Shown in pieces: positions 1 through 17,735 of a stretch of DNA of 64,000 nucleotides. Numbering within the stretch: the first letter of the stretch is position 1; each line of letters begins with the position of its first letter. Made by a program: the position numbers and the translations under genes. The stretch lies in assembly GCF_009914755.1 (NCBI RefSeq), contig NC_060938.1. One strand, written 5' to 3'. The DNA comes from the human T2T-CHM13v2.0 reference genome, Homo sapiens. The notes beneath the pieces were generated by a model. The model saw only the letters and a list, made by a program, of their open reading frames with translations, made no database searches and was not told the DNA's origin.

Positions 1-226
1 GCGTGAGCCACCGCGCCCAGCCCCAAGCATTTCTGATAAGGGATGCTCAACCTATAGTATAAAAAAAGAAGTGTAAGTTATCTCATTTTATATTTTTAAA
101 TGAGATAAAAGATATCTCATTTTTTATATTGATTGCATGCTAAAATGATTTTGCTATTTGTGGGTTAAATAAAGTACATATTTATTAACTCAATAAATGA
201 ATGTGTAATTAAATGTTACTAAATAA

Positions 227-667
<441 letters not shown>

Positions 668-964
668 TAGAGTCTGAGTGTTTAACATTGCTGCCTTAAA
701 TATGTAATAAAATATACAGTCATTAAATATCATATTTTAATATAATATGTAATTAATATAAAAATGTTAGTGATATAATGTTGTAAGGAAAAAACTGGAA
801 TACAAAACTATATGATTTTTTATACATAGAGAACAGTCTGGAGGGATAACCAGCCACTGGGCAGTAGTGGTTACTTCCAGGGAGTTTTAGGGAGAGCCAA
901 GCAGAGTGTGAAGGATGATTTTTATCTTTTTATTCTAGGTGTTTTTTTATTATTTAAAAATTTT

Positions 965-1563
<599 letters not shown>

Positions 1564-1699
1564 TCCTCCTCAAACTAGATACAGTATGATCCCGGTTTTA
1601 TGTAAGAGAGAAAGAGAGAGAGAGACTATATCCCTATTTATATCCAAACAAAGCAAAAAAAAAAAAAAAGACTGTACAGAAAGCAACTAAATGATAGAC

Positions 1700-1999
<300 letters not shown>

Positions 2000-2096
2000 G
2001 TGATAGGCTTTTCTTCTTTTATCAGCACTGCATGTTCCGAATGTTTTACAGGACTTTTATAATTAGAAAAAAGGAACATTAAAAACAAAAAACATG

Positions 2097-2252
2097 GGGG
2101 GAGCGGGGAGGGATAGCATTAGGAGATATACCTAATGCTAAATGACGAGTTCATGGGTGCAGCACACCAACATGGCACATGTATACATATGTAACAAACC
2201 TGCACGTTGTGCACATGTACCCTAAAACTTAAAGTATAATAATAATAAAATT
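2097..2252 (+). mobile_element. Short 3' end of a young L1PA (PA2/PA3-like) in the RDH12 last intron
   Basis: gggagggatagcattaggagatatacctaatg...cctaaaacttaaagtataataa; flanks aaaaacaaaaaacatg resemble a TSD. Confidence 0.9.
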
Positions 2253-2780
2253 AAAAAAACAAAAAAAAACATGATGAGAACTGTGTTCTGCTCCCACCCC
2301 CTATCCCTCTAGTCCTCAGGGCCCCTGCTCATTCCAAAGCAAATCTGGAGGGCTTGGTCTGGGGTTCATGGTATGCAAGTGCATCTGTCCCCAGAATTCA
2401 AGAGGCCTGTGAACTTGGATGGGAAAATAACTTCATCTTTAATTTAACCTCCAACTGAGATTTGGCATTTTCTTCAATTACGAATGTAGGCACTGAACTG
2501 TAGTAGTAGTAGTGATACCTGTGACTTTGTCACCAATAGAATTATAAATATTTTTATATCACATTGCAGTTGTTGCAGATATCCTAGAATGTCACTTCTG
2601 CTCCCCACTACTTTGAAATCCTTTGATTATTAGACCTGGTACTAGATCTTGTTATAGAATATATTAATAAATAAGCCTGTGTATTACTATATCACAAATT
2701 TGTTTTTAAAATATTTTTGGAGTGCATTTTGTATAATTAGTTTCTTTGAGTCTGGCATATATTGTATTTTATTCATTTAG

Positions 2781-2966
<186 letters not shown>

Positions 2967-3547
2967 CTGGTGGAAGAGCTGCAGCTTTATCAGGCCCAAT
3001 CCATGCCATAATGAACAGGGACCAAGGAGAAGGCCAACCCTAAAGGATTGTCCTCTTGGCCAGCTGGTGCTGCGAATCCTGCCTGCTCTGATCCTCTTGA
3101 CCCTTCTGGGAATGTTTGCACACCTGACACTCTTGTGAGACTGGCTTATGGCATGAGTTGTGGACACCTATAGAGTGTTCTTCTCTAAGACCTGGAAAGT
3201 CAGCAACCCTCTGGGGGCAGCAGGACTGGGCAGATCCCAGGCTGGGCATGGGGGTGGCAGAAGAGCCCGAGAAATTGGGTCAGTTCCCTCATCAGCACCA
3301 GAGGCTCAGCTGAGGCAAGAAGAGCACCATCACTGCCTATTTCTAGGGGCTATACACTCCAACTCTTGGTTGATCTCTTTCTTTTTAAAAATATTTGCCA
3401 CCACCCTGGAGTCTAGACCAACACACAAAGATCCTGGCTAACCCTGGCCTATTTAGATTCCTTCCTCTCACCTGGACCTTCCCATTTCAATCATGCAGAT
3501 GGTTTCTTTTTGTAAAGAGTTCCGTTTGCCTTTCAATTTTTAGAGAA

Positions 3548-3553
3548 AATAAA
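3548..3553 (+). terminator. RDH12: RDH12 polyadenylation signal AATAAA (3' UTR ~2967-3570)
   Basis: First AATAAA after the stop codon, followed by a T/GT-rich element (ttgtcttatttattttt). Confidence 0.85.
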
Positions 3554-4312
3554 GACTGCATTCATCTCATTGTCTTATTTATTTTCTCAGGGCAGCAAGG
3601 GAGAGAAATGGAACAAATCAGGAAACCAGCCTGCTAGTTTAGTGAGTAGCATTTCACCCTACCCAGCCACGGGAATTGGGAATAGCAAGGGAGCAGGCCT
3701 AGGCCTAGAACTCAGGGCAAAGACAGCAGCTGGAATGTAAGATCCTCAGAGTGTGTAGCTGCTGGGAGGAATCCATCTGAGTTAGGCAGACAGAGAAAAA
3801 GCAGTTTCAGTGAGAATCTGGCACCCAAAAGGAAAGGATTTTACTCCCCCATGGCCTAACTGCCTTAGGAAATTTGAGTGCTGACGGAGACACTCTTCCC
3901 CTTGAGTTTTAGGAAAGGGGTGCTATTCTCTGCGTTATCCCCATCTCCTTCCTTCCTGAAGGAGGCTCCACTTGCAGAATGCATCATTTCCTGCCGCCCT
4001 CAGCAAGGATCACAGCTTGGCCAGCTCACAGTGGTACAGGGCTGGGAGTGGATACTCCTAACTGCAATGCTGTACTGCCTCTCATTTAAAGACATTTTGT
4101 TAAATATCTGGCTAGAGAAAATATTTTAAATCTGAAAGTTTCCATCATATCCCAGATTATTAGATGCACTTACAACCAACAGCAAATGACACCAAATATC
4201 GGGAAGCTGAGCAGCAAAGAATGCAAAAGAAAACAATGATAGGCATGGGTGTTGATTCGACATGTTGTTGGCATTTTCAGAATATTAAGCCACAGTCGTT
4301 CCCCTTGTTCAG

Positions 4313-4447
4313 ATTCCAGACTCCATCATTTCTCGTGGTGTTCAGGTGCTCCCACGAGACACAGCCTCCCTCAGCACTACTCCTTCAGAATCGCCTCGTG
4401 CTCAGGCTACATCTCACCTCTCTGTAGTGTCTCGCCCGACACCAAAA
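4313..4447 (+). pseudogene. GPHN: Orphan copy of one gephyrin (GPHN) linker exon (residues ~244-288, P1 numbering)
   Basis: Translates to [45 protein letters not shown] vs recalled gephyrin [45 protein letters not shown] (41/45). Preceded by ccccttgttcag acceptor; no GT donor after it. Confidence 0.9.
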
Positions 4448-6196
4448 GGACCATCTAGTCTGCTCAGCCTGGGCAAGGAACATGTGCCAGTCTTGGCCTC
4501 TTGTCATGTTTCCAGAAAAGACTTGCCGCAAGTTAACATCTGAGCAAGTGAAAGGCCTTGGCTCTGCACAAACAATGCCGGGGGATTGGTGGCCGAGACA
4601 CCGTTCGACCTTCCCATCTTGGCTCCCTGAAATCCCCTGCAACCTTCGGGGCTGTTTTTCCGCTATTGACTTGTGCTTGGATATGGATATGGCTTCCTGC
4701 CTTGGCAGAGTGCCCCTCAACATACAGGAAACAAGATCCTGGATGAGAAGGGCTCAGGGATTTCAGTTGTTCCAGACTTCCCTCCTAGGTGCTTCTCTAA
4801 CTGCCCCAGTTCCACTGCCTTCACTATTCCTGGCTTCTCTTAGCCTCTGACACCCTTAGCTAATCTAGCCTGGGGTGGAAAATCTTTTTCTTTTGGCTCA
4901 GCTGAGACTGTCCTAATTTCCTAAAAATAACACTTCAATGGGAAACTAAAGGAAAAGGAAATCAAAGAGACATATGAAACTCAAGAAACAAACAGTTTCA
5001 GAGCACCGATTTCCTAGGTGGTGACTAGCTGCCACAGATTACCTTGGGTGGCACTTGGCCCTTGTCCAACTCAACTTCGTATACAATGTTGCCATGCGTC
5101 CCAAGCTCAGGAGGATATACCTTGTGTATTTGGTCTCTTTTAGTTATAAGATGGACACTCAGTTTGAGCAAGCTTAAGTCCCAAACCATGCAATATTTTG
5201 CTCATAAACTCAAGGAAGGGTTGAAACTGGAAAGTGGGAATGGGCAGAGATGTATCTTAGAAATAACTAGAACTCAAGCGCCAAGCAACACCAGACTCCT
5301 CTCCCTCTACCATTGAAGAGTTCCTGCAGCCATTTCCTATTTTTAGAATTTAAAAAATTCCAGGTTTGGCTTGGGTCAAATGCTCACTGTGAAGCATTCA
5401 ACTGTAGTTGGGTATTGGGTATTGAAACGTCTCTTCTACGGCTATCATATTCTCATATATGCTATTTTGATATCGCTATCATATTTTCATATTGTAGAAG
5501 AGGCATTTCAAATCAGTCAGAAAAACATAGACAATGTCATAAGTGGTGCTGGACAAATAACTATCCAAATGAAACATAAAGTTAGATTCTTTGCCTCACA
5601 CCATGCATACAAATGAGTACTATGTGGACTAAAAGGCAAAAAAAGTTGTGAAAATATTAGAAAAAAATATAGAAGAATATCTTTATGCCCTTGGAAGAGG
5701 GATAGCATTCTTAAGACATGAAAAGCAAAAAGCATATGGGAAAAGAGGAATACATCCAAAAAGCATACCTCAAACAAAGTTCAAAGTCAAGTGATAATGG
5801 TGAACATATTTGAAATTGTTTTACGTTATGTATTCTAGAAAACGGACTTCGAGATACAGACATTTGCACACAGCAAATTTATTAGGAGGACTGTTAGGAT
5901 TGGTATCTATAGGGGAGTGAGAGAAGCGGGACAGGGCAGAGGGTGAAGTTGATCTGCGATGCAGTCACACTAAAGGGTTAGGTGATCCTGTTCCACAGAG
6001 AGCTCTGGAGCTGAGCTGTCTTGAATTGAGGAAAGGAGGTTGGTCTTTAAACACCCGCAGTGACCAGTAATTGGGTGTGGGCAGCTTCCAGGGAGGGGGC
6101 ATGACCTGGGTGAGGGCAAGTTCTAGATAAAAACTCAGCTGAGAGTTGGCAGCTGTGTACATTTCCAGCATCTGGGAGAATAAGTGCTTCATTTCT

Positions 6197-6344
6197 TTTT
6201 CTTTTCTTTTTTTTTTTTTTTTTTCGGTAGAGACAAGGTCTCTCTCTGTTGCCCATGCTGGCCTTGAATTCCTGGGCTCAAGCAATCTTCCTGTCTTGGC
6301 GTATCAAAGTGCTGGGATTACAAGCATGAGCCACTATGCCTAGC
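6197..6344 (-). mobile_element. Alu monomer (FLAM-like) with TSD tgcttcatttct
   Basis: TSD at 6185-6196 and 6349-6360. Confidence 0.85.
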
Positions 6345-6369
6345 TGTATGCTTCATTTCTAAAGGGAGT

Positions 6370-6732
6370 ATATTAGTCCATTCTCACACTGCTATAAAGA
6401 TCCTACCCAAGACCGGGTAATTTATAAAGAAAAGAGGTTTAATTGGCTCATACTTCCACATGGCCGGGGAGGCCTCAGGAAACTTACAATCATGGTGGAA
6501 GGTGAAAGGGAAGCAAGGCACATCTTCATAAGGTGGCAGGAGAGAGAGAGAGTGCAGGGGAAACTGCCACTTTTAAAACCATCAGGTCTCATGAGAACTC
6601 TCTCACTATCACGAGAAGACAATGGGGGAAACCACCCTCATGATTCAGTCAACTCCCACCAGGTCCCTCCCTCAACACATGGGGATTACAATTTGAGATG
6701 AGATTTGGGTGGGGACACAGAACCAAACCATA
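6370..6732 (-). mobile_element. MaLR solo LTR (MSTA-like)
   Basis: tattagtccattctcacactgctataaag...ggggacacagaaccaaaccata, typical MST/THE1 LTR termini. Confidence 0.88.
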
Positions 6733-7424
6733 GGAGGGAATCTGGGTGGTGCAACACAGCATCTGCTGCAGATGTATATGTATATATGACCTATCTTATA
6801 TTTACATAGATAATATGTATCACACAAAAGAGCAGTACCCATATTTTTATTCATTTTTCTTTCGACTTGGGGTCTCGCTTTATTGCCCAGGCTGATCTCA
6901 AACTCCTGGACTCAAGTGATCCTCCCACCTTGGCCTCCCAAAGTGCTGGGCTTACAGGTGTGAGTCACCACTCTCAACTTATTATCATATAAAGAACTTC
7001 TACTTCTCAATAAGAACAAGACACAGAACCCAACAGAGAACTTTGCAAAAGTTATAAATAGGAAATTTTCAGAAGAAACGCAAATGGCCAATGTACCTAA
7101 GTCAAGATATTTAACCTGACCAGTGATCAGAGAACTGCAAATTAAAACAAGATGCCATTATACCATTTTAAACCATCACATTGTCAAAAATTTGAAAGCT
7201 TAGCAAATATTGGCAAAAATATAGAAAAATAGATATTTTTATACACTGCTGCTATGAGTGGAAGAAATGGTGGAGACATTTCTACCAGCAATTCAGCTTC
7301 TTAATATCTGCAGTAACATTAGCCTATGTATGTAAAGAGGAGGCATTGTTCATATTAGCAAAAAAATGGAAATAGCCTAAAAGTCCATCAGTTGGCGAAA
7401 AACTAATCTGTGGTATGATTATAC

Positions 7425-7570
7425 AATCTGACATGATTATATAATAATTATATACTAATATACTTATATATACTAATATACTTATAAATATATACTTATA
7501 AAATATATACTTATAGAAATATACTTATATACTTATAAATAATTATATACTAATCTCTGTATGATTATAT
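7425..7570. repeat. AT-rich degenerate minisatellite (tatacttataaa-like units)
   Basis: Multiple imperfect tatacttata/tatactaata units. Confidence 0.8.
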
Positions 7571-7894
7571 GATGAAATAATTATTTTGGAGTAGTTATTC
7601 CAAAAATCATTATATTAAAAAAATAATTATACACATATATACTTGGATAAATCATACTGAATTTCAGAATGATGTGTTCTGTGTAGTAAGACTTATATTT
7701 TGAAATTACACACATGTAATATATATTTTCTATGAGTACATATATAGGTATGTAAAAGCACAGAAAAAGATATAAAACAATATAATGAATGTGTAAGAGA
7801 GGTTATCCTGGGGAAGGATTAATGGGAAATGATTTTTCAATTTTTTAAAAGCAGAATATTCTTATATCTTACTTGAAAATTAAACATTAATAAC

Positions 7895-8555
7895 TTCAGC
7901 AGACACTGTTAGCTGTCACCCAGTAGTCATTCCCTATTCTGACTTTGTTCCAGTGTCTACCTCTGCTTTCTGTGAATGATTAACTGATCGCAGTTGTTCT
8001 CAACTCTGGCTGTGTATTTTTAAATATTTAAGATGCCAAAGTCCAGGCCTCCCCACAGAGATCCATATTCAATTGTTCTCGCCTTGGGAAAATGTTTTTG
8101 AAAGCAACCCAGGTGATTCTGATGGGCTGCCAGGGCTGTGAACCACTGGCCCAAGGCAACCGTGCGGATCACATTTTTTTGCAAGTGACGGTGATGGAAA
8201 AGTCACGTGGCTCAATCATGGCCGGTGGGATGTGGAAGGAGCCTCTTTGGTAGCTTCTAGGAAAGGCTTCCTCATTGGTTAAAACATGAGGCACAGGAAG
8301 AAATTTTCTGTCTTGTGTTGGATGCTGTCATGGCTAAACATGACACCTGAATCTGCCACAATCATCTTGAGACCATGAGTGAAGCTGGCTGGCCCAAAAA
8401 CTAGCGCACATGCCGAGGGTGGTGAAAGGAAAGATAGAGAGAATCTGGGTTGCTGATGACGTGGTGGTGAGTCACTGAATTAACCAAGACTGGAGCTGTG
8501 CTCCCTTGGGACTTCTTGTTACACAACATAATAAATTGACCTTATTAAGTCTGTG
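7895..8555. mobile_element. Old ERVL LTR (LTR16-like) with a MER5-type DNA transposon at ~7990-8148
   Basis: MER5 ends cagttgttctcaa / aaccactg; LTR16-like motifs catcttgagaccatgag, ggacttcttgtta. Confidence 0.55.
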
Positions 8556-9744
8556 TCCTACTGATGCTATCGTATTATGTTGAACCCTATAAAGTTGCTG
8601 ACATTCTACCATTTTTAACCTACTTTTTAATTTTTTTTTTTACTTTTTTTTCTTACCATTACTGCTAGTCCAAGGCAGATATCTTCCTGACCTACTTTTA
8701 TCACCCTCAATTTCCTCATCTGCCAAGTGAATATTTGACAACTTTTTCATTACATTTTTCTCCACCCCCAAGTTCTGTCATCTTCCATTGATTTCTGAAT
8801 ATGACAGATATCCATGGAGAAAACTGACCTAATATCCTAGCACAGAGAATCCTAATAGTCCTGGCACACCCTTACAGGTGTTCACCCAAGTTTTAATCTA
8901 TATGTACAATCTATTTTTTCTACATATGGATATATAATCTATATTAGCCAAAATGATCAGCTAAGAAAATCTCAAGAGAGGAGGTACAACTTGCTCTGAT
9001 AGGAGGAGATTAATTATTGTAACAAACAATGTTAACTTTAGTGGTACAATATAATAAAAGTTTATTTCTCGCTCATGTCACATTCCACTGCAGGAATGGG
9101 GGTGGGAGGGTGGTTCTGCTCCCCATGGCCAAGAAAAAAATCAATGGTTCCATTATTTCCCAGGACCTCAGTGTTCTCTATTGGATCCCCTGTATCCAGC
9201 TGCCAGATGATGCAAAAGAGTGCATCCAACTATATCCAGCTATTCCATTTCTGGGCCAGGGATGTACAGTAATAAAAGCCCACAAAATTTGTTTTTCCTG
9301 TTTTCATCTTAATAAAATCACTATGTTGTTATAGTCATCTAATAATTTATGTTCCAATGACAGCAGTTACTTAAAGGATTAAACCAATATAATTGTATTG
9401 AAAGTATACACAATTTAATATATTCTCATAAAAATGGAAATCAAAGAAATGCAAAAAAAATTATTTAAAAAATGTTTTAGATTATTTTTCTTTTAAAATA
9501 TTTAAATTATCTATTATAATTAAAAGACAAATTATAATTTTGAGTATCAACATTTTAAATCCAAATTATTTAAATAATGTGGAATATTTTTATTTTTTGA
9601 AAATTTAGTTAATTTTATGATTTTTGTAAAATAAAACAATTCACAATTCTGAAGTTCATTGTCCATTTAGTTGCTAATGTAAACAATGGATATCATACTT
9701 CATGCATGTTTCCTTTACACCTATACACCTACCAGTTTAAAAGT

Positions 9745-10037
9745 GCCAGGCACTGTGGCTCATGCCTGTAATCCCAGCACTTTGGGAGGCCAAGGCGGGT
9801 GGATCACGAGATCAGGAGTTCGAGACCAGCCTGGCCAAGATGGTGAAACCCCTATCTCTACTAAAAATAAAAAAATTAGCCGGGCGCAGTGGCAGGCGCC
9901 TGTAATCCCAGCTACTCAGGAGACTGAGGCAGGAGAATCATTTGAACCTAGCGGGGCAGAAGTTGCAGTGAGCCGAGATCACACCACTGCACTCCAGCTT
10001 GGGTGACAGAGTAAGACTCTGTCTCAAAAAAAAAAAA
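9745..10037 (+). mobile_element. AluS (Sg-like)
   Basis: Full dimer with A-tail. Confidence 0.94.
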
Positions 10038-11239
10038 GTAATATGAATTGTTTAATATTGCAAATTTTTAAAGACTCCATAGACAAATGTTGCAAACACA
10101 CATTGGAATATGAAGAAGGACAAGAATATAGACCCTCGACTACTGAAAATGATACCCGTTTTAATGCAAGTATTTATTATACTCATGCTGGGGAAGAATT
10201 TGACAAGTTAATGAATTTGTCTTTTCTCTTCCCCAACTGCTTCTTTTATTCCAATCCTCCCTATGCTCAGAAGCAGAAGCATAATCTGCACACCTTCAAA
10301 GCCTTTGAATGCAGTTAAGTAGAGTTTTCCTGGCACCTAAACAGTGTTAATCATGAGAGTAAATGTTTAGGGTATCAGGTTATGTTATGTCAGCACTGAG
10401 TTCCAGAGCCTTATGTATTTGTAAATACACTTATTATTTTCTTGTGCATTCTGGTGAAATATAAGGCTTTTAAAGTGGCTGGCCAAGGGAAGGAGCCCTT
10501 CTTGCCTGGGTCTAAGGGCAATACTATTCATGTAGTTCATATTCATGTAGTTCATATTCATGTAGTCCTCACATGTCCACTGGGGGCCTAACCCTAGGAA
10601 TTCTCAGAGAAGAGGGACCTTTGATGTGCCAGATAGAAATATGGTAGATGCCAGGCCCTAACTAGCATCTACCATAGACGTTTAATGTCAATCTGGCATA
10701 AAAGATCAAGTGTTTATTGAACATATGAGAATTCTGCCTTATAAAGTATTTGAGAAAGTGTGATTAAACAGTAAATAACTCACCTCAAATAACAACATGG
10801 TACTGAAGGAAGACCAAGTGAATGGTGTGATAACTGTAATACACATGGGTTGCCCAAAGCACTACTATTTGAAAACGTGACACATATTCACTCAGACTCA
10901 GTTCCCTGACCTTCTCCTAATCACTGACTCCTAATCACTGCCTTCTACTCTTCTTCAGTCCTCAATTCCCATGACAAAGACTACACCTCCATCACATGAA
11001 CTTTCTGCTCTCCAGATAACTTTTAACATCCTACTCTAGCCACAACCTCCTACTCCTCCAACTTTCTTCCTTGCTGATTCACTTGCCCCATTATCATCCC
11101 TGTCTAGTGAAGAACAAGCGCCCACGGAGCGGTCCATCTCTCTGATTTCTATATACCAAGAGTATGGCTGGAGAAAATCACTCAGTCTCACAGATTGGAG
11201 CTTCCATGAATCACTGGTCACCAACATCAACTGGGGTTT

Positions 11240-11548
11240 CCATTATGCTAAATAAACCAGACACAAAAGGACAAATACTGTATGATTCCACTTGCCTGAG
11301 GTACCTAGAGTAGTCACATTCACAGACAAAAAGTATAGTAGAGGTTACCAGGGACTGTGAGGAGGGGTAAATGGGGAATTAGTGTTCAATGGGTGCAGAG
11401 TTTCAGTTGGAGGATGAAAAAGTTCTGGAGATGGATGTTGGTGATGGTTGCACAACAATGCAAATGTACTTAATGCCACTGAAGTGTACACTTAAAAATG
11501 GTTAAAATGTTAAATTTTATGTCATGTATATTTTAGCATAATAAAAAA
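11240..11548 (+). mobile_element. L1MB-type 3' end
   Basis: ccagacacaaaaggacaaatactgtatgattccact...gtacacttaaaaatggttaaaatg. Confidence 0.85.
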
Positions 11549-11854
11549 TCTTTCAAGTCTTTCAAGGATCCTAGGCTCTGTATCTGCTTAGATTCTCCAT
11601 ACCTCAATATTATAGAGAAGTCCTTTGATTCTTCTAGAATTATTATTTGTTCATATGGAGTTGGTAGAAGGTGCAACTCTAGGATGAATGTTTGAGATGA
11701 AGAGTCTTCTGCAACAGTCAGGGGAGGAGGTGATAATGATCTGAACTACAGTGATGAAGTGGAAGGGACAGGTTCTTCTGGCTGGGAAGGTAGGATGATA
11801 GGATTTGGCTTTGGACATAGCTTGGACATAGCTTGATGCATGGCAGGTACTTGA

Positions 11855-12292
<438 letters not shown>

Positions 12293-12329
12293 TAGTAATA
12301 ACAACACTCCTTAATACTATATATTAACA

Positions 12330-12673
<344 letters not shown>

Positions 12674-13489
12674 CTATATATTCACTGAAGAAGGAAGTTC
12701 AGGTTTGTGGGTAGAATTGAATGCATTCCATTTTGGACATGCTAATATTTTTAGGTGCATGTCAGCCTTGGGGTGAGTTCCAGGAGGTAGTCAAAAGGCA
12801 GATCTGGTGTGGGAAAGAGTTAAGGGGGGCAGTCAAGATGACTGCTGAAGCTAAGGGATTGTATGGGAGAGTATGAGTGTCAAGAGGGAATAGCTAGAAC
12901 CTTGAGGAATTTGTCTTTAAGTGGGATGAAGAGAAAGCATAGGCAGAGAAGTGAATAATCTGTACAGGAGATGGCACTCGATGCAGGACTGAGGGAAGAG
13001 GTTTGACAATGGTAGACTTGAGGGTAGGGTAGAGGAGGTGCTGAAGGAAGGGCTCCAAGAAGAAATAACAACATGCAGAATTAGCGAGCAGGAAAGCATT
13101 CCACCAAAGAAGCCATTCAGTGACCAGACATCGAATGAATTTGTTGTGGAAGAACTAAACATTTCAAGGATAGGTCAGTCAACATTATCACTGTGGAATA
13201 AGAGATGAAGGCCAGGAAAAGGCCATTTCCTCTGGGGTTACTGTGGCTATCGATATTTGGTTGCTTGGGTATTCAAAGAGTCTAATAGCCTTTGATCTAC
13301 TTTGCTTAAGCTCCAGCCAAAGATATCTGGTAACCTTGGAGTGTCTCAGGTTTCTAAATATAGCAGTCATCTATCCTAGGTTTAGAGTGGGTGTTCCAAC
13401 TTTCTCTGTTGTGACATATCTTTGTGCTACGTCTACTACCAGGTGGTTTTCAGGTCTACTTTAATCATTACTGTTGTTTGTTTTTAGAT

Positions 13490-14511
13490 CTTTTTTAATT
13501 TTTAAATTTATTTATTATTTATTTTACTTTAAGTTCTGAGATACATGTGCAGAACGTGCAGGTTTGTTACATAGGTATACATGTGCCGTGGTGGTCTGCT
13601 GCACCTATCAACCCGTCAACTAGGTTTTAAGCCCTGCACGCATTAGGTATTTGTCCTAATGCTCTCCCTTCTCTTTCCCACCCACGACAGGCCCCAGTGT
13701 ATGATGTTCCCCTCCCTGTCTCCATGTGTTATCATTGTTCAACTTCCACTTATGAGTGAGAACATGCGATGTTTCGTTTTCTGTTCTTGTGTTAGTTTGC
13801 TGAGAATGATGGCTTCCAGCTTCATCCATGTCCCTGCAAAGGACATGAACTCATTCTTTTTTATGGCTGCATAGTATTCTATGGTATATATGTGCCACAT
13901 TTTCTTTATCCATTCTATCACTGATGGGCATTTGGGTTGGTTCCAAGTCTTTGCTATTATAAATAATGCTGCAATAAATATATGTGTGCATGTCTCTTTA
14001 TAGTAGAATGATTCATAATCCTTTGGGTATATACCCAGTAATGAGATTGCTGGGTCAAATGGTATTTCTGGTTCTAGGTCCTTAAGGAATCGCCACACTG
14101 TCTTCCACAATGGTTGAACTAATTTACACTCCCACCAACAGTGTAAAACCATTCCTATTTCTCCACAGCCTCGCCAGCATCTGTTGTTTCCTGGCTTTTT
14201 AATAATTGCCATTCTAACTGGCGTGAGATGGCATCTCATTGTGGTTTTGATTTGCATTTCTCTAATAACGAGTGATGATGAGCTTTTTTCATGTTTGTTG
14301 GCTGCATAAATGTCTTCTTTTGAGAAGTATCTGTTCATATCCTTTGCCCACTTTTTGATGGGATTGGTTTTTCTTGTAAATTTATTTAAGTTCCTTGTAG
14401 ATTCTGGATATTAGACCTTTGTCAGATGGATAGATTTAAAAAAATCTCTCCCATTCTGTAGGTTGCCTGTTCACTCTGATAGTGTCTTTTGCTGTGCAGA
14501 AGCTCTTCAGT
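13490..14511 (-). mobile_element. 5'-truncated L1PA (~1 kb: ORF2 C-terminus, 3' UTR, degenerate A-tail)
   Basis: ORF 13739-14338 reads ...[14 protein letters not shown]...[10 protein letters not shown] (L1 ORF2p C-terminus); L1 3' UTR follows. Confidence 0.95.
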
Positions 14512-14580
14512 CCATACTCTACACATTCAGAGAAACTTCTCTAGTAACGAACTATAGAAATGATCCCTCAAAGTATAGTT
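14512..14580 (-). pseudogene. U3 snoRNA 5'-fragment retrocopy (~70 nt) fused to L1
   Basis: Reverse complement ACTATACTTTGAGGGATCATTTCTATAGTTCGTTACTAGAGAAGTTTCTCTGAATGTGTAGAG matches the U3 5' domain (boxes A'/A). Confidence 0.92.
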
Positions 14581-14846
14581 TGTTTTTTTTTTTTCACATG
14601 AGAAATTGGATGAGATCATGTTTCCGGGGAAAGGAGATAATGAGCAGTGATGCCACTGTCCATGGCTCAAGTATCATACTGCAAACATATGCCTGAAGTG
14701 GGTGGCAAGAAAACAGTTTAAGCTAAGTTTGAGTTCTGCTTGCCCCAAAGACCCTACACCTGGTTTCAAAGATTGACAATTTGGTTGATATTGAAAAGAT
14801 ATGTAGAGCTTTTAAAATGACAACAGCTTTTTAAAGCATTTTAGAG

Positions 14847-15062
14847 GGCTGGGGCACAGGGCCAGGGGAAGTAGCCCTGTAATTCTAGCACTTTGGGAGG
14901 ATGAGGCAGGATTGCTTAAGCCCAGAAGTTCAAGACCAGCCTGGGCAACATAGTGAGATACTGTCTCTACAAAAAATAAAAAAAAATTAGCCAGGCGACT
15001 GCACTCCAGCCTGGGTGACAGAGCTAGACCCTGTCTCAAAAAAAAAAAAAAAAAAAAAAAAA
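14847..15062 (+). mobile_element. Alu with most of the right arm deleted
   Basis: ttagccaggcg joined directly to actgcactccagcc. Confidence 0.85.
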
Positions 15063-15614
15063 TTCACTAAAGAAGAAACCTTTCACCCATCGGACTAGCA
15101 TAGATCCAGAAAATTTGGTATTCTGAACAAGATAATTCAATGCAGCATAATCTGTAGTGGCGAAAGATGGCAACAACATAAAATGTCCATCATTAGAAAC
15201 TGGTTAAATAATTGTGGTATAGCTTCACAGTGGAACACTTTAGTCATTTGCTCTGGAACTGTACACTAGACACTGATAACAATGGTGGCCTCTGGGAGGG
15301 GACTGGGCTGGGTGGACAGGGTGGAAGGGACTTTTCACTTACCTTTTGCACCTTATAAACGTATTACCTATCTCTACCCATCCCCCAACTGAAGCAAAAA
15401 AAAAAGTTTTCTGGTGGTAGAGGGTGCACTAACAGTGTTTAAACACATAGGAAATGAGATAAATCCTAAGCAAAGTCATTAGTCATTATGGGGATTATTT
15501 AGACTAAGTCTGAATTGAAGGCCATCTGATCTTCCCCACTCACCTTTTCTTTCCACAAGGAAAAAGGATGCAAAGGGTAGGAGCAAGACAGCACCAAGAA
15601 GTTATGAAGCCAAG

Positions 15615-17531
15615 AAACATGTTGATAGACACTTTATTGTGGCTTGTTTGTAGTAAAACATTCAACCCCTCAACATGGGTATCTGTTTTGGTGGTGTTTT
15701 TCTGTTGGAGACTACAGCGTGGTGTTCAAAGGCTTTTAGCCTCATCTCATATCAGTCTAGTCAGTGGTTGCCTATAATTTGATAGTTCAATGAGTTAGAG
15801 GAAAATGTCAGGAAAATCTGGTCTTATCCCAAATTAAGGGCTGCAAGATTTGTGACCCATTAGTATAAAGTGCTTATGTTCAGTGCAAAAAAGGCAGACT
15901 CAGAAGGGCAAGCAGACGCCAGAGAAGGACATTTCCTGGGAGATGGATATGTTCTATGACTCAAGGAAGGAAAAGCCAAACTTTAGCCCAAATGGGTCTA
16001 GTAGTTTCATTACAGTCTTTCTCCTCTCTAACAGGACCAAAACTTCTCATCTGACAGATGTCCATGAGTTGTTTATTTTACTACTAAAAATCTTGGTTCA
16101 GAGGGAAATCCACAGGGTTTCTAAGCACCAGAGACACTGACTTCAGCTTCCAGTTTCTGTTTGTCTCAGCGTCATGGATGGGACCAATAGGCTGAGCTCT
16201 GGCCAGTGAGAGGTTCAGAGCTGCAGAGCTTTCTTTAGGCCCCACATTTGCAAATTGAAGTCACTGAGTATGACACACCTTTTCTCAAACATTGTCACAT
16301 CTTGCGTGGGAAGACAAGACAGTGCATATTAAAGAAGCACTTCACCTAGTTTTCCACCAACCAGATGTGACCTATTCATTATTCCCTCATTCTGACTCTG
16401 TCCAGAGGCCCAATTCCAAAGCCAACCCTTGACTCCCTTTTCTAAGACAGAGAAAAGAAGCGCACTCCCTTCCCAATGACCCCACATGTCTGCATATCCA
16501 TCCTGTGGTCCTGAAGAGACTGAAGGGAAGCAGGAGGGAAAAGGAAGCAGCTTCCTAACCAATTCAAGGAGCGCAAACAGGACTGCAGCTCAAATAGGTA
16601 AAATCGAGTCATTCAGTCCTAGGATCCTGGCCACCTTTTCTCTCCCCAGACTCTCAAAGAGGAAGTCCCATTCTCTCACCCACCAACTTTGCAGCAGGGA
16701 CATTCACAACAGGCAGCTCTGTGCTTGTGAGCACCCGCTCCCCCCACCACCCCCCACCGCCTCCCCTGTATCCCTGTTTGGATGGTTAGCCTTTCTTTCC
16801 CTCTTGCCCGTGTTAGCCTCACAGACCTGATCATTTATACACATACCCACAGCTTTCAGATGCCTGCACCTGAAAACCCTTCTATTCAGACTACCTTCCA
16901 AAGACTCCAGGACTTCTTGTGCTTGGGAGAAGAGACACCTGGAAAACAGGTTTATTCCACAGGTAGCACTTGCCCCAAAGCCATCTCTGAATTTTGGAAT
17001 GGGAAGGAAGGAAAAGAGGCAATCCTTTTGGTGTTGCTCTAATTCTCTGTAAAAGCCCTCTAGGTAAGAGGAGCTACTAAAGCACGTCCACAGAGGGGGG
17101 ACTATACAAACAGGACAACCCGGGTCAAGAACCAAAACGCAGGGAAGGTTTTCAGAGTGGCAAGTCTAAAGTAAAGTGCCTCTTTTAAATGGAGAAGAGT
17201 TTCATTTGTTCAGAAATGCTTGGGCGTAAACATCAGCGCACAGGAACATGCACACGTGTGTGCACACATACTCACTCACTCACTCTGAGGTAGAAAGAAC
17301 TGGCCATCTCCAGACAAACACACATAGATTCCACAATTTTAGAGAAACATGGCACTTGCGTGAAAGGTCCTATCCTTGCCCGGGAAGGCAAGTAGGGTCC
17401 AATCCAACTCTTTCCAACCTAGGGCAGAGCCAGAGAAGTCCCACTCCACTGGAGGAAAGAGGTGGAGGGCATCGCCATCACTGCTGTTGCCCAGCTCTCA
17501 GGCCACGTGTTCCTGGCCCCACTGCCCAAGG
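15615..17531 (-). other. ZFYVE26: ZFYVE26 3' UTR (end approximate)
   Basis: Lies between the TGA stop (17532-17534) and AATAAA on the - strand; no Alu seen in it. Confidence 0.85.
15633..15638 (-). terminator. ZFYVE26: ZFYVE26 polyadenylation signal AATAAA
   Basis: tttatt on the + strand; downstream on - is GT/T-rich (catgtttcttgg). Confidence 0.8.
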
Positions 17532-17735
17532 TCACTTCCTGGAGCCTGGGCCATGGGCACCCCGGGGGTGGCTTGTCAGAAGCCACTGGGCACAGATGTC
17601 TTGCACTACTGCATCCCCGCTGCTCTTGGCGGCCTGCTGCACCTGCTGGACAAGGGCTGTGGCCCGTGAGTGTTCTTGCTTCACAGCAATCAAGTAGGCA
17701 GAACGCAGTTTGCAACATATCAGGTAGGCCCGAAC
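17532..17735 (-). CDS. ZFYVE26: Spastizin exon 42 (terminal coding exon)
   Basis: CAG|VRAYLICCKLRSAYLIAVKQ...HPRGAHGPGSRK-TGA; 204 nt. Confidence 0.97.
   Translation of the reverse strand, partial: VRAYLICCKLRSAYLIAVKQEHSRATALVQQVQQAAKSSGDAVVQDICAQWLLTSHPRGAHGPGSRK

What the first reader, a model, noticed from the sequence alone, without database searches (positions are those of the whole stretch)
4290..4543. Orphan, exon-precise copy of the gephyrin phospho-switch exon just past the RDH12 poly(A) site
Seen: 4313-4447 is exactly 45 codons, [45 protein letters not shown]. It has a plausible acceptor (gtcgttccccttgttcag|ATT) but no donor (AAA|GGACC). The frame stays open for 31 more residues ([31 protein letters not shown]) to TGA at 4541-4543. 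Established/recalled: this is gephyrin linker 244-288, between the C3 and C4 splice-cassette positions. It carries S268 (ERK1/2), S270 (GSK3beta/CDK5, mAb7a phospho-epitope) and palmitoylated C284. GPHN lies upstream on the same chromosome arm and, as I recall, on the same strand as RDH12. The copy keeps S268/S270/T276/S277 but has C284->R. No other gephyrin exon is visible in the window. Inference: it could be a dead duplicate, or a long-range alternative terminal exon giving a G-domain-plus-linker gephyrin without the E domain. It could also be an alternative RDH12 last exon: the phase-2 donor would read ...[38 protein letters not shown], stop at 4427. No AATAAA is visible nearby downstream, which weakens the terminal-exon idea.
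Basis: partly seen in the sequence, partly recalled or inferred. Interest (0 to 1): 0.9.

Follow-up and report, generated by a model that had tools for sequence, protein, structure and literature searches.

The report
Stray gephyrin exon copy beside RDH12
A 396-base piece of the gephyrin gene (part of an intron plus the exon carrying its phosphorylation switch) sits as a stray copy 770 kb downstream, just past RDH12; it is most likely a dead relic whose perfect 118-base match to the real exon can mislead read mapping and gene models.

Summary
Window 4313-4447 encodes 45 residues of gephyrin (244-288 of the 736-aa form), and the frame stays open to TGA at 4541-4543. It is the only other copy of that exon in the human assembly; the real exon lies 770,008 bp upstream on the same strand.

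The copy is exon-precise only at its 3' end. Homology runs 4053-4447/8, so about 260 nt of the upstream GPHN intron were copied too. That excludes a processed retrocopy. Both flanks are unique, with no other GPHN exon, poly(A) tail or target-site duplication.

Divergence is uneven:
- Distal intron: 77% identity (K2P about 0.29), so the copy is old.
- Proximal intron: about 90%.
- 4298-4415: 118 nt with no difference (0 of 200,000 permutations reach this).
- Last 32 exon nt: 8 differences (R278H, T281V, A282V, C284R).

Best reading: a non-functional, unprocessed fragment duplicate, later patched by non-allelic gene conversion. It keeps a constitutive-exon acceptor but has no donor and no AATAAA. 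RefSeq already lists 4313-4473 as a GPHN exon. That model could come from multi-mapping reads or cryptic splicing alone.

Conversion versus constraint could not be settled, because no other mammalian DNA was available. Interest is modest.

The parts
4053..4312 (+). Copy of the last ~260 nt of the GPHN intron that precedes the linker exon
   Evidence: Local blastn of the window against L002 and the per-column map. 4053-4212: 37 differences in 160 aligned nt, 77% identity, K2P 0.28-0.30. 4213-4297: about 90% identity plus 11 gap columns.
4313..4447 (+). Copy of the 135-nt GPHN exon encoding gephyrin residues 244-288 (holds S268 and S270; C284 is R here)
   Evidence: It differs from the parent exon (C14:61172305-61172439) at 8 of 135 nt. 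Amino-acid changes: R278H, T281V, A282V, C284R.
4298..4415 (+). 118-nt tract identical to GPHN: the last 15 nt of the acceptor plus the first 103 nt of the exon, with 4 CpG kept
   Evidence: A run of 118 or more was reached in 0 of 200,000 permutations of 53 differences over 384 columns; the longest run seen was 98.
4416..4447 (+). Diverged 3' end of the exon copy: 8 differences in 32 nt (7 transitions, 1 transversion)
   Evidence: The chance that all 8 exon differences fall in the last 32 of 135 nt is 4.7e-6.
4448..4543 (+). Unique read-through sequence where a donor should be: GGACC..., 31 more open codons, then TGA at 4541-4543
   Evidence: It is unique in the genome and matches nothing in the 200 kb of GPHN downstream of the parent exon.
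4313..4473 (+). Exon of a non-selected RefSeq GPHN transcript. It sets the annotated GPHN gene end at 4473.
   Evidence: Hub annotation table only; the record and its supporting evidence were not seen. Position 4473 is followed by CAAGGA, which is not a donor, and no poly(A) signal precedes it.
3548..3569 (+). RDH12 poly(A) signal AATAAA (3548-3553) and the annotated RDH12 3' end (3569), 744 nt upstream of the copied exon
   Evidence: (the only AATAAA in 3500-8000) and the hub table.
4355..4434 (+). Copy-specific 8-nt inverted repeat: CGAGACAC at 4355-4362 and GTGTCTCG at 4427-4434, created by 4 of the 8 exon differences
   Evidence: The parent has GCTTCCTG at the second arm. A new inverted repeat of this length arises in 555 of 50,000 simulations (random positions) to 4,315 of 50,000 (same positions), so the signal is weak.

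Best explanation
This is a dead, unprocessed fragment duplicate of GPHN. A 396-bp piece was inserted 770 kb downstream on the same strand, 744 nt past the RDH12 poly(A) site. The piece holds the last ~260 nt of one intron plus the whole 135-nt linker exon, and it ends at the exon's last base.

Shown directly:
- The extent of the copy and its single-copy status.
- The unique flanks.
- The absence of a donor, of a canonical poly(A) signal, of a poly(A) tail and of a target-site duplication.
- The strongly uneven divergence along the copy.

Inferred:
1. The insertion is old. The distal intron has K2P of about 0.29, or about 0.145 per lineage if both copies drift. That corresponds to roughly 60-100 million years.
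2. The copy then drifted neutrally. This accounts for about 10% divergence in the proximal intron, where the parent is probably constrained, and for 5-8 mutational events in the last 32 exon nt.
3. A 118-nt stretch (4298-4415) was later overwritten from GPHN by non-allelic gene conversion. With no difference and all 4 CpG kept, this would have happened within roughly the last 20-25 million years.

The element still carries the acceptor and first 103 nt of a constitutive exon. It can therefore be spliced into now and then, for example by RDH12 read-through RNA. It also attracts ambiguous or chimeric GPHN reads. That is the likeliest origin of the RefSeq exon 4313-4473. I expect no protein function.

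How the piece was copied remains open. The exact stop at the exon/intron junction (CCAAAA|) suggests an RNA splicing intermediate as template, treated as a rival below.
For: - **Single paralogue.** The only other copy sits inside GPHN on the same strand.
- **Extent.** 332 of 398 aligned columns are identical over window 4053-4448, including intron.
- **3' boundary.** The parent continues CCAAAA|gtaagt, the copy CCAAAA|ggacca.
- **Unique flanks.** Flanks 3300-4052 and 4449-5600 each gave 1 genome match, to themselves.
- **No further GPHN homology.** Sensitive blastn and tblastx of window 3570-6500 against 200 kb of GPHN gave only this match plus Alu hits. The next GPHN exons (the cassette beginning LHSRLEGL, then VQSRCSSKENILRAS, then the following exon) do not match the 3' flank.
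- **Divergence profile.** 77%, then about 90%, then 100%, then 75%.
- **The identical run is not chance.** 0 of 200,000 permutations reach 118. P(no difference in 118 nt) is 5e-5 to 9e-9 for copy divergence of 0.08-0.145 per site.
- **Tract boundaries ignore the exon.** It starts 15 nt inside the intron and ends 32 nt before the exon end. That fits a conversion tract better than exon-level selection.
- **No synonymous change** in the roughly 34 codons of the tract, so protein-level selection alone does not explain it.
- **The palmitoylated Cys284 is lost**, and three neighbouring residues changed that are invariant in the 10 of 10 gephyrin sequences I fetched.
- **No terminal-exon signals.** No GT donor, and no AATAAA in 3549-8000.
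- **No RNA family or structure signal.** No Rfam family in 3000-7000. The tract shows no excess RNA structure: z -0.37 and -0.20.
Against: - **No outgroup.** No DNA from another mammal could be examined, so the age, the direction and date of the supposed conversion, and the absence of constraint are all inferred from one genome.
- **Conversion is mechanistically awkward here.** The two loci share only about 400 bp, at 77-90% identity, and lie 770 kb apart. That is unfavourable for homologous pairing.
- **Constraint cannot be excluded.** Perfect retention of 118 nt including 4 CpG is also what strong nucleotide-level constraint would give.
- **RefSeq lists an exon here** (hub table). I could not inspect its evidence, and it may rest on reads carrying copy-specific bases.
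- **The 3' end is unusually exact.** A DNA-level duplication ending within 1 nt of an exon boundary is improbable by chance, roughly 1% on my estimate.
- **Protein searches are weak evidence of absence.** The database is clustered at 90% identity and only the best 120 of 4,681 hits were listed. A model protein with the copy-specific tail could be hidden.
Confidence: 0.55

Rival explanations
1. The copy is a functional element kept by selection. In this reading the 118 identical bases are conserved, not converted. It could act as a real alternative terminal exon, giving a gephyrin with the G domain and linker (S268/S270 present, Cys284 lost) but no E domain. Such a protein would be expected to disturb clustering. 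Alternatively it could act at RNA level, as a sense or antisense GPHN-exon sequence inside RDH12 read-through or ZFYVE26 long transcripts.
For: - 118 nt with no change and 4 CpG retained, inside a copy that is otherwise 10-25% diverged.
- The acceptor is intact, and the three nearest intron differences (-16, -20, -24) include two pyrimidine-to-pyrimidine changes.
- The frame is open for 76 codons.
- RefSeq lists exon 4313-4473 under GPHN, and ZFYVE26 is annotated across this place on the other strand (hub table).
- GPHN deletions and irregular splicing in patients with neurological disorders are listed in Table 1 of PMC9206673 (passages).
Against: - No donor and no canonical poly(A) signal for 2.7 kb or more.
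- A GPHN transcript would have to run about 0.55 Mb past its own end, through the genes the hub table lists upstream of the window (VTI1B, RDH11, RDH12).
- Selection on a protein does not explain the complete absence of synonymous change.
- The tract starts in the intron and stops inside the exon.
- The functionally mapped Cys284 is lost.
- No RNA structure signal and no Rfam family.
- No protein with the copy-specific residues among the listed hits.
- Nothing in print joins GPHN and RDH12 beyond gene lists, judging by titles and abstract openings, with passages read in one paper: 3 papers, 10.
Confidence: 0.1
2. The origin was RNA-mediated; this concerns origin only, not present function. The template was a splicing intermediate of GPHN pre-mRNA. 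The upstream intron was still present, and the RNA had been cut at the 5' splice site of the downstream intron, so it ended in ...CCAAAA-3'OH. It was reverse-transcribed with 5' truncation, either by L1 machinery priming on the terminal A run or during break repair, and then inserted. The present state is the same as in the best explanation.
For: - Homology ends within 1 nt of the exon's last base, while 260 nt of upstream intron are present.
- The copied RNA would end in four A's.
- The 5' end falls at an arbitrary place in the intron, as 5' truncation would give.
- The sense orientation and small size (396 nt) fit.
Against: - No target-site duplication: only two 5-mers are shared between the 44-nt flanks, and neither abuts the junctions.
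- No poly(A) tail and no L1 sequence alongside; the flanks are unique.
- Retrotransposition of a splicing intermediate is, as far as I recall, not an established class. I ran no literature search on it.
- An old deletion or rearrangement could have placed the boundary there by chance.
Confidence: 0.3
3. The copied exon is a low-level alternative last exon of RDH12. The donor of the penultimate RDH12 exon occasionally skips the normal acceptor at 2864 and uses the one at 4313 on read-through RNA. The C-terminus is then replaced by [37 protein letters not shown].
For: - Same strand, 744 nt past the RDH12 3' end.
- The acceptor matches that of a constitutive exon over its last 15 nt.
- The RDH12 phase (coding part 2864-2966 is 103 nt, so one base completes a split codon) gives the frame read, with a stop at 4425-4427.
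Against: - None of the 3 RefSeq RDH12 transcripts uses it (hub table).
- It requires read-through of a canonical AATAAA site and has no poly(A) signal of its own.
- The product would lose the last 34 RDH12 residues.
- No transcript data could be examined.
Confidence: 0.1

Closest known systems
Unprocessed (duplicated) pseudogene fragments, meaning small ectopic DNA copies of part of a gene
   Same: It contains intron as well as exon sequence and lacks the rest of the gene. It has no poly(A) tail or target-site duplication and has drifted from the parent.
   Different: It is only 396 bp and holds a single complete exon. It ends exactly at the exon's 3' boundary, and its coding frame is still open.
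Gene/pseudogene pairs homogenised by non-allelic gene conversion (recalled examples: CYP21A2/CYP21A1P, GBA1/GBAP1)
   Same: A patch of perfect identity lies inside otherwise diverged paralogous sequence. Its boundaries do not follow exon limits, and its length (118 nt) is typical of conversion tracts.
   Different: As I recall, the classic pairs share kilobases at over 95% identity and lie close together. Here only about 400 bp at 77-90% identity is shared, across 770 kb. Conversion is inferred here, not shown.
Truncated or irregularly spliced gephyrin variants reported in neurological disorders (Table 1 of PMC9206673, passages seen)
   Same: A transcript ending in this exon copy would encode the G domain plus part of the linker without the E domain.
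   Different: The reported variants arise from deletions or exon skipping inside GPHN. This one would need splicing to a copy 770 kb away, and nothing examined here shows that it is made.
Processed retrocopies and semi-processed retrocopies
   Same: One boundary is defined by RNA processing, since the copy ends at the 5' splice-site cleavage position with a terminal A run.
   Different: Intron sequence is retained. No adjacent exons are joined, and there is no poly(A) tail or target-site duplication.

Membership tests
Copy of the GPHN exon for gephyrin residues 244-288 | Significant sequence identity to the exon, with matching length and frame | tested here: met
   127 of 135 nt and 41 of 45 aa are identical to C14:61172305-61172439. 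E 3.3e-16 in the genome protein search. Residues 244-288 in P0044.
Unprocessed (DNA-type) duplicated fragment | Contains intron sequence contiguous with the exon | tested here: met
   About 260 nt of the upstream intron aligns at 77-90% identity.
Unprocessed (DNA-type) duplicated fragment | Breakpoints unrelated to RNA-processing sites | tested here: not met
   The 3' breakpoint coincides, within 1 nt, with the exon/intron junction. The 5' breakpoint is at an arbitrary place in the intron.
Processed retrocopy | Introns removed, with neighbouring exons joined | tested here: not met
   Intron is retained upstream. The 3' flank matches none of the downstream GPHN exons within 200 kb.
Processed retrocopy | Poly(A) tail and target-site duplication | tested here: not met
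   Only the exon's own AAAA is present. The flanks share no repeat longer than 5 nt, and none at the junctions. Old duplications may have decayed.
Non-allelic gene conversion tract | A run of identity significantly longer than the overall divergence allows | tested here: met
   The run is 118 nt. 0 of 200,000 permutations reach it, and the longest run seen was 98.
Non-allelic gene conversion tract | Phylogenetic incongruence: the tract groups by species and the flanks group by locus | not testable with these tools
   No other mammalian genome is held. The protein databases returned only parent-type sequences.
Alternative terminal exon of GPHN | Usable 3' splice site and open frame with a stop codon | tested here: met
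   The last 15 intron nt are identical to the constitutive exon's acceptor. The frame is open to TGA at 4541-4543.
Alternative terminal exon of GPHN | Poly(A) signal downstream | tested here: not met
   No AATAAA in 3549-8000, and the nearest ATTAAA is at 7141. Only weak variants lie nearer: ACTAAA at 4945 and CATAAA at 5203.
Alternative terminal exon of GPHN | Transcripts that carry copy-specific bases | not testable with these tools
   No transcript data were available. The hub table lists a RefSeq exon at 4313-4473, but its supporting evidence was not seen.
Alternative last exon of RDH12 | Phase-compatible reading frame and an annotated or observed junction | tested here: inconclusive
   The frame gives 37 residues and then a stop at 4425-4427. 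None of the 3 RefSeq RDH12 transcripts uses it (hub table). There are no transcript data.

The most novel reading that the evidence does not exclude
The 118 bases have stayed identical to the gephyrin exon because they are used, not because they were recently overwritten. One possibility is that the acceptor plus exon body serves as a real distal terminal exon. This would yield a G-domain-plus-linker gephyrin that keeps the S268/S270 switch but lacks Cys284 and the E domain, and that could act as a natural dominant-negative regulator. The other possibility is that the sequence, transcribed within RDH12 read-through RNA (sense) or long ZFYVE26 transcripts (antisense, 118 nt perfectly complementary to GPHN mRNA), regulates GPHN RNA in trans.
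Probability: 0.1. Interest if true: 0.7.

Novelty: new member of a known kind. Interest (0 to 1): 0.3.

Why it matters
**Practical consequences**
- The first 103 nt of the exon encoding gephyrin's S268/S270 phospho-switch, plus 15 nt of its acceptor, exist twice in the human genome.
- Short reads, junction reads and probes that fall inside those 118 nt cannot be assigned to one locus.
- Chimeric cDNAs can form across the identical stretch.
- A RefSeq GPHN model ending at 4473 stretches the annotated gene about 0.55 Mb past its normal coding exons and across RDH11, RDH12 and other genes. Variants in that interval may therefore be labelled 'GPHN intragenic'.

**Biological interest**
- The piece is a compact natural example for two questions: how far apart, and how short, paralogous sequences can be and still undergo gene conversion; and whether a splicing intermediate can be copied back into DNA.
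- If the tract instead proved to be under constraint, it would point to an unrecognised regulator of gephyrin.

Tried and rejected
1. **Spliced-RNA retrocopy.** I fetched 200 kb of GPHN from the parent exon downstream. Window 3570-6500 was compared with it by blastn (word size 9), and window 4440-4700 by tblastx. Only the known 398-column match and Alu hits appeared, and the best tblastx E-value was 0.33. The cassette and constitutive exons that follow the parent exon were located and do not match the 3' flank. Rejected. The whole-genome searches of both flanks found only themselves.

2. **Cross-species dating through protein databases.**
   - The 'longer' search gave 4,681 hits at E<=0.001 among 4,743 candidates, of which 120 were listed. 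All but one are ordinary gephyrins (91% over the exon, 63-89% where the alignment runs past it); the exception is P0002, which carries the exon twice.
   - The 'near' search gave 9 hits.
   - I fetched 7 of those 9 plus 3 from the longer list. All 10 carry the parental SRLSTASCPTPK, and those from short contigs read on into the GPHN intron.
   - No orthologue of the copy was found, so its age and constraint remain untested.

3. **Apparent alignment extensions past PTPK** (53-56 residues). These are chance similarity to other cassette sequences.

4. **RNA structure or a known RNA family as a reason for constraint.** There is no Rfam hit in 3000-7000. The tract folds no better than shuffles. The whole copied exon has z -2.2 (6 of 200 shuffles fold as well), owing to the copy-specific inverted repeat.

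5. **Template-switch origin of the 3' mutation cluster.** Four of the 8 differences create an exact 8-nt inverted repeat. Simulations produce a new one in 1.1% (555 of 50,000), 7.7% (3,874 of 50,000) or 8.6% (4,315 of 50,000) of trials, depending on the model. This is suggestive only.

6. **A voided script.** One search used a parent slice shifted by one base. Its difference list and simulation are void and were redone.

7. **Literature.**
   - 'gephyrin' + 'RDH12' found 3 papers and 'GPHN' + 'RDH12' found 10. By titles and abstract openings all look like gene lists.
   - The one I opened (PMC13491712, passages) lists both genes within +/-0.5 Mb of a cattle SNP, which decides nothing.
   - 'GPHN' + 'ultraconserved' found 4 papers, none relevant. 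PMC12064997 (passages) concerns a lncRNA in Gphn intron 1.
   - Passages of PMC9206673 mention five novel Gphn exons but nothing about a distal copy. Its supplements were not opened.

Full report
**1. The observation**

Window 4313-4447 is 135 nt and translates to 45 residues, IPDS...PTPK. It is preceded by ...gtcgttccccttgttcag| and followed by GGACC, so there is no GT donor. The frame stays open for 31 more codons to TGA at 4541-4543.

A DNA search of the window's own assembly with 4100-4900 found two places: the window itself and C14:61172111-61172440 at 85% identity. A six-frame protein search scored 22 candidates and gave four matches at E<=10:
- the window itself;
- the GPHN locus, at E 3.3e-16;
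- two noise hits, at E 0.84 and 5.07.

So there is exactly one other copy. It lies inside GPHN on the same strand, 770,008 bp upstream; the parent exon is C14:61172305-61172439. In a 736-residue gephyrin (P0044) the exon is residues 244-288.

- S268 is phosphorylated by ERK1/2 and S270 by GSK3beta (passages of PMC5103071).
- Cys212 and Cys284 are palmitoylated (abstract and passages of PMC4099074).

**2. Anatomy of the copy**

A sensitive local alignment gives 332 identities in 398 columns between window 4053-4448 and the parent. The copy therefore starts about 260 nt inside the intron upstream of the exon. It is not exon-precise on that side.

At the 3' side it is precise. The parent reads CCAAAA|gtaagt and the copy CCAAAA|ggacca, and no similarity follows.

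Both flanks are unique in the genome: 3300-4052 and 4449-5600 each gave one match, to themselves.

I fetched 200 kb of GPHN from the parent exon downstream. The following exons were placed at these offsets from C14:61172000:
- a cassette exon, at +56,865;
- the exon beginning VQSRCSSKENILRAS, at about +58,740;
- the next exon, at +93,772.

None of them, and nothing else in the 200 kb except Alu elements, matches window 3570-6500. A gephyrin protein run against all 64 kb of the window finds only 4310-4447.

There is no poly(A) tail beyond the exon's own four A's. There is no target-site duplication either: only two 5-mers are shared between the 44-nt flanks, and neither lies at a junction. No Rfam family was found in 3000-7000.

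**3. Divergence profile**

The per-column map comes; the exon was re-checked.

| Segment | Content | Result |
|---|---|---|
| 4053-4212 | distal intron | 37 differences in 160 nt, 77% identity, K2P 0.28-0.30 |
| 4213-4297 | proximal intron | about 90% identity, plus 11 gap columns |
| 4298-4415 | last 15 intron nt + first 103 exon nt | 118 nt without a single difference; all four CpG intact |
| 4416-4447 | last 32 exon nt | 8 differences (7 transitions, 1 transversion) |

The eight exon differences give R278H, T281V, A282V and C284R.

The identical run is not chance:
- 53 substitutions placed at random over 384 ungapped columns never gave a run of 118 in 200,000 trials; the longest seen was 98.
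- For a copy-lineage divergence of 0.08-0.145 per site, the probability of no change in 118 nt is 5e-5 to 9e-9.
- The chance that all eight exon differences fall in the last 32 of 135 nt is 4.7e-6.

The parental 45 residues are invariant in all 10 gephyrin sequences I fetched, from fish and lungfish to mouse. The exon differences were therefore made in the copy.

Four of them (4428, 4429, 4432, 4433) turn GCTTCCTG into the exact reverse complement of 4355-4362. This may be the trace of one template-switch mutation. However, such a repeat arises in 1.1-8.6% of simulations, so I treat it only as a possibility. If it is real, the last 32 nt hold five events (16%). That is in line with the proximal intron.

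**4. Interpretation**

*Age.* The distal-intron distance is about 0.29 in total, or about 0.145 per lineage if both sides drift. This implies an old event. Using my recollection that the human lineage has accumulated about 0.16-0.17 substitutions per neutral site since the human-mouse ancestor, the insertion would be roughly 60-100 million years old. This is inference; no outgroup was available.

*Drift.* The 90% zone and the exon's 3' end fit a model in which the parent is constrained and the copy drifts.

*The 118-nt tract.* It needs a separate cause. Protein-level selection cannot explain the total absence of synonymous change. The tract also ignores the exon limits: it starts in the intron and ends 32 nt before the exon end. 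Both features are typical of a gene-conversion tract copied from GPHN. With no differences and all CpG kept, conversion would have happened within roughly the last 20-25 million years (inference from a rate of about 1e-9 per site per year).

*The counter-argument.* Only about 400 bp at 77-90% identity is shared, across 770 kb. That is poor substrate for conversion, so nucleotide-level constraint cannot be excluded. I put conversion well ahead of constraint but cannot settle the matter here. The tract shows no unusual RNA structure on either strand (z -0.37 and -0.20).

**5. What it does now**

The copy keeps the last 15 nt of a constitutive exon's acceptor unchanged. The next three intron differences lie at -16, -20 and -24. 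It has no donor. There is no AATAAA between RDH12's own signal (3548) and 8000, and the nearest ATTAAA is at 7141.

It lies 744 nt past the RDH12 3' end on the RDH12 strand. According to the hub table it also lies within the span of ZFYVE26 on the other strand.

The hub table lists 4313-4473 as an exon of a non-selected RefSeq GPHN transcript, and this sets the gene end. Position 4473 has neither a donor nor a poly(A) signal. The GPHN frame is still open at 4473, because its stop is at 4541-4543.

Such a model would need a GPHN transcript to run about 0.55 Mb beyond the last coding exon I could place (residues 488-513 at C14:61,366,535-61,366,612) and across several genes.

A read that spans the upstream GPHN junction and ends within the first 103 exon bases aligns equally well to either copy. 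cDNA chimeras can also form across 118 identical bases. The model can therefore arise without any real use of this exon (inference). Occasional cryptic splicing of RDH12 read-through RNA is also possible; in the RDH12 phase the exon reads FQTPS...TSL and stops at 4425-4427.

I found no protein carrying the copy-specific residues. This is weak evidence, because the database is clustered at 90% identity and only the top hits were listed.

**6. Origin**

Retained intron excludes a processed retrocopy. The stop exactly at the 5' splice-site cleavage position, on a run of four A's, is unlikely for a random DNA breakpoint. It suggests a reverse-transcribed splicing intermediate with 5' truncation. 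The lack of a target-site duplication, of a tail and of nearby L1 sequence argues against this, or reflects age. I give this origin about 0.3.

**7. Comparison with what is known, and novelty**

The element is best filed as a small unprocessed pseudogene fragment with a probable conversion patch. Both phenomena are known. The exon itself already appears in RefSeq.

My searches found nothing in print about it:
- 'gephyrin' + 'RDH12': 3 papers.
- 'GPHN' + 'RDH12': 10 papers. By titles and abstract openings all look like gene lists; I read passages of one, PMC13491712.
- Passages of the gephyrin long-read study PMC9206673; its supplements were not opened.

**8. Verdict**

This is an old stray copy that is most likely inert. 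Its main practical significance is mapping ambiguity at the gephyrin phospho-switch exon and an over-extended gene model. Whether the perfect tract reflects conversion or constraint is a clean, cheap test in existing mammalian alignments. Interest 0.3.

Noticed in passing
Protein P0002 (database hit; predicted gephyrin-like protein of a cyprinid fish, 824 aa): The same 45-residue exon occurs twice in tandem in this predicted protein (...PTPK followed directly by IPDS...PTPK). This is either an independent tandem duplication of the exon or an assembly or model artefact. It explains why this protein scored highest (119 bits) (sequence seen).
   Followed up: no
window 4355-4362 and 4427-4434: Four of the eight copy-specific substitutions make an exact 8-nt inverted repeat with an upstream part of the same exon. 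The copied exon consequently folds better than shuffles (z -2.2; 6 of 200 shuffles fold as well). It may be a single template-switch mutation, but simulations give 1.1-8.6% by chance.
   Followed up: partly
window 4271 (-42 from the copied exon): The parent intron has TTGAC here, which fits the branch-point consensus yUnAy as I recall it. The copy has TTGGC, so the best-looking branch-point A is lost in the copy (by eye). The effect on splicing was not tested.
   Followed up: no
window 1-17735, minus strand: The hub table gives ZFYVE26 a span reaching -1989, beyond its selected last exon (15618-17735). Some ZFYVE26 model therefore runs antisense across RDH12's 3' end and across the gephyrin exon copy. 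Such an RNA would hold 118 nt perfectly complementary to GPHN mRNA. The structure of the model was not visible to me.
   Followed up: no
window 6200-6500: This stretch gave many 70-85% matches on both strands throughout the 200 kb of GPHN. It overlaps the masked repeat at 6407-6734. By hit length and abundance it is an Alu-type element, unrelated to the finding.
   Followed up: no
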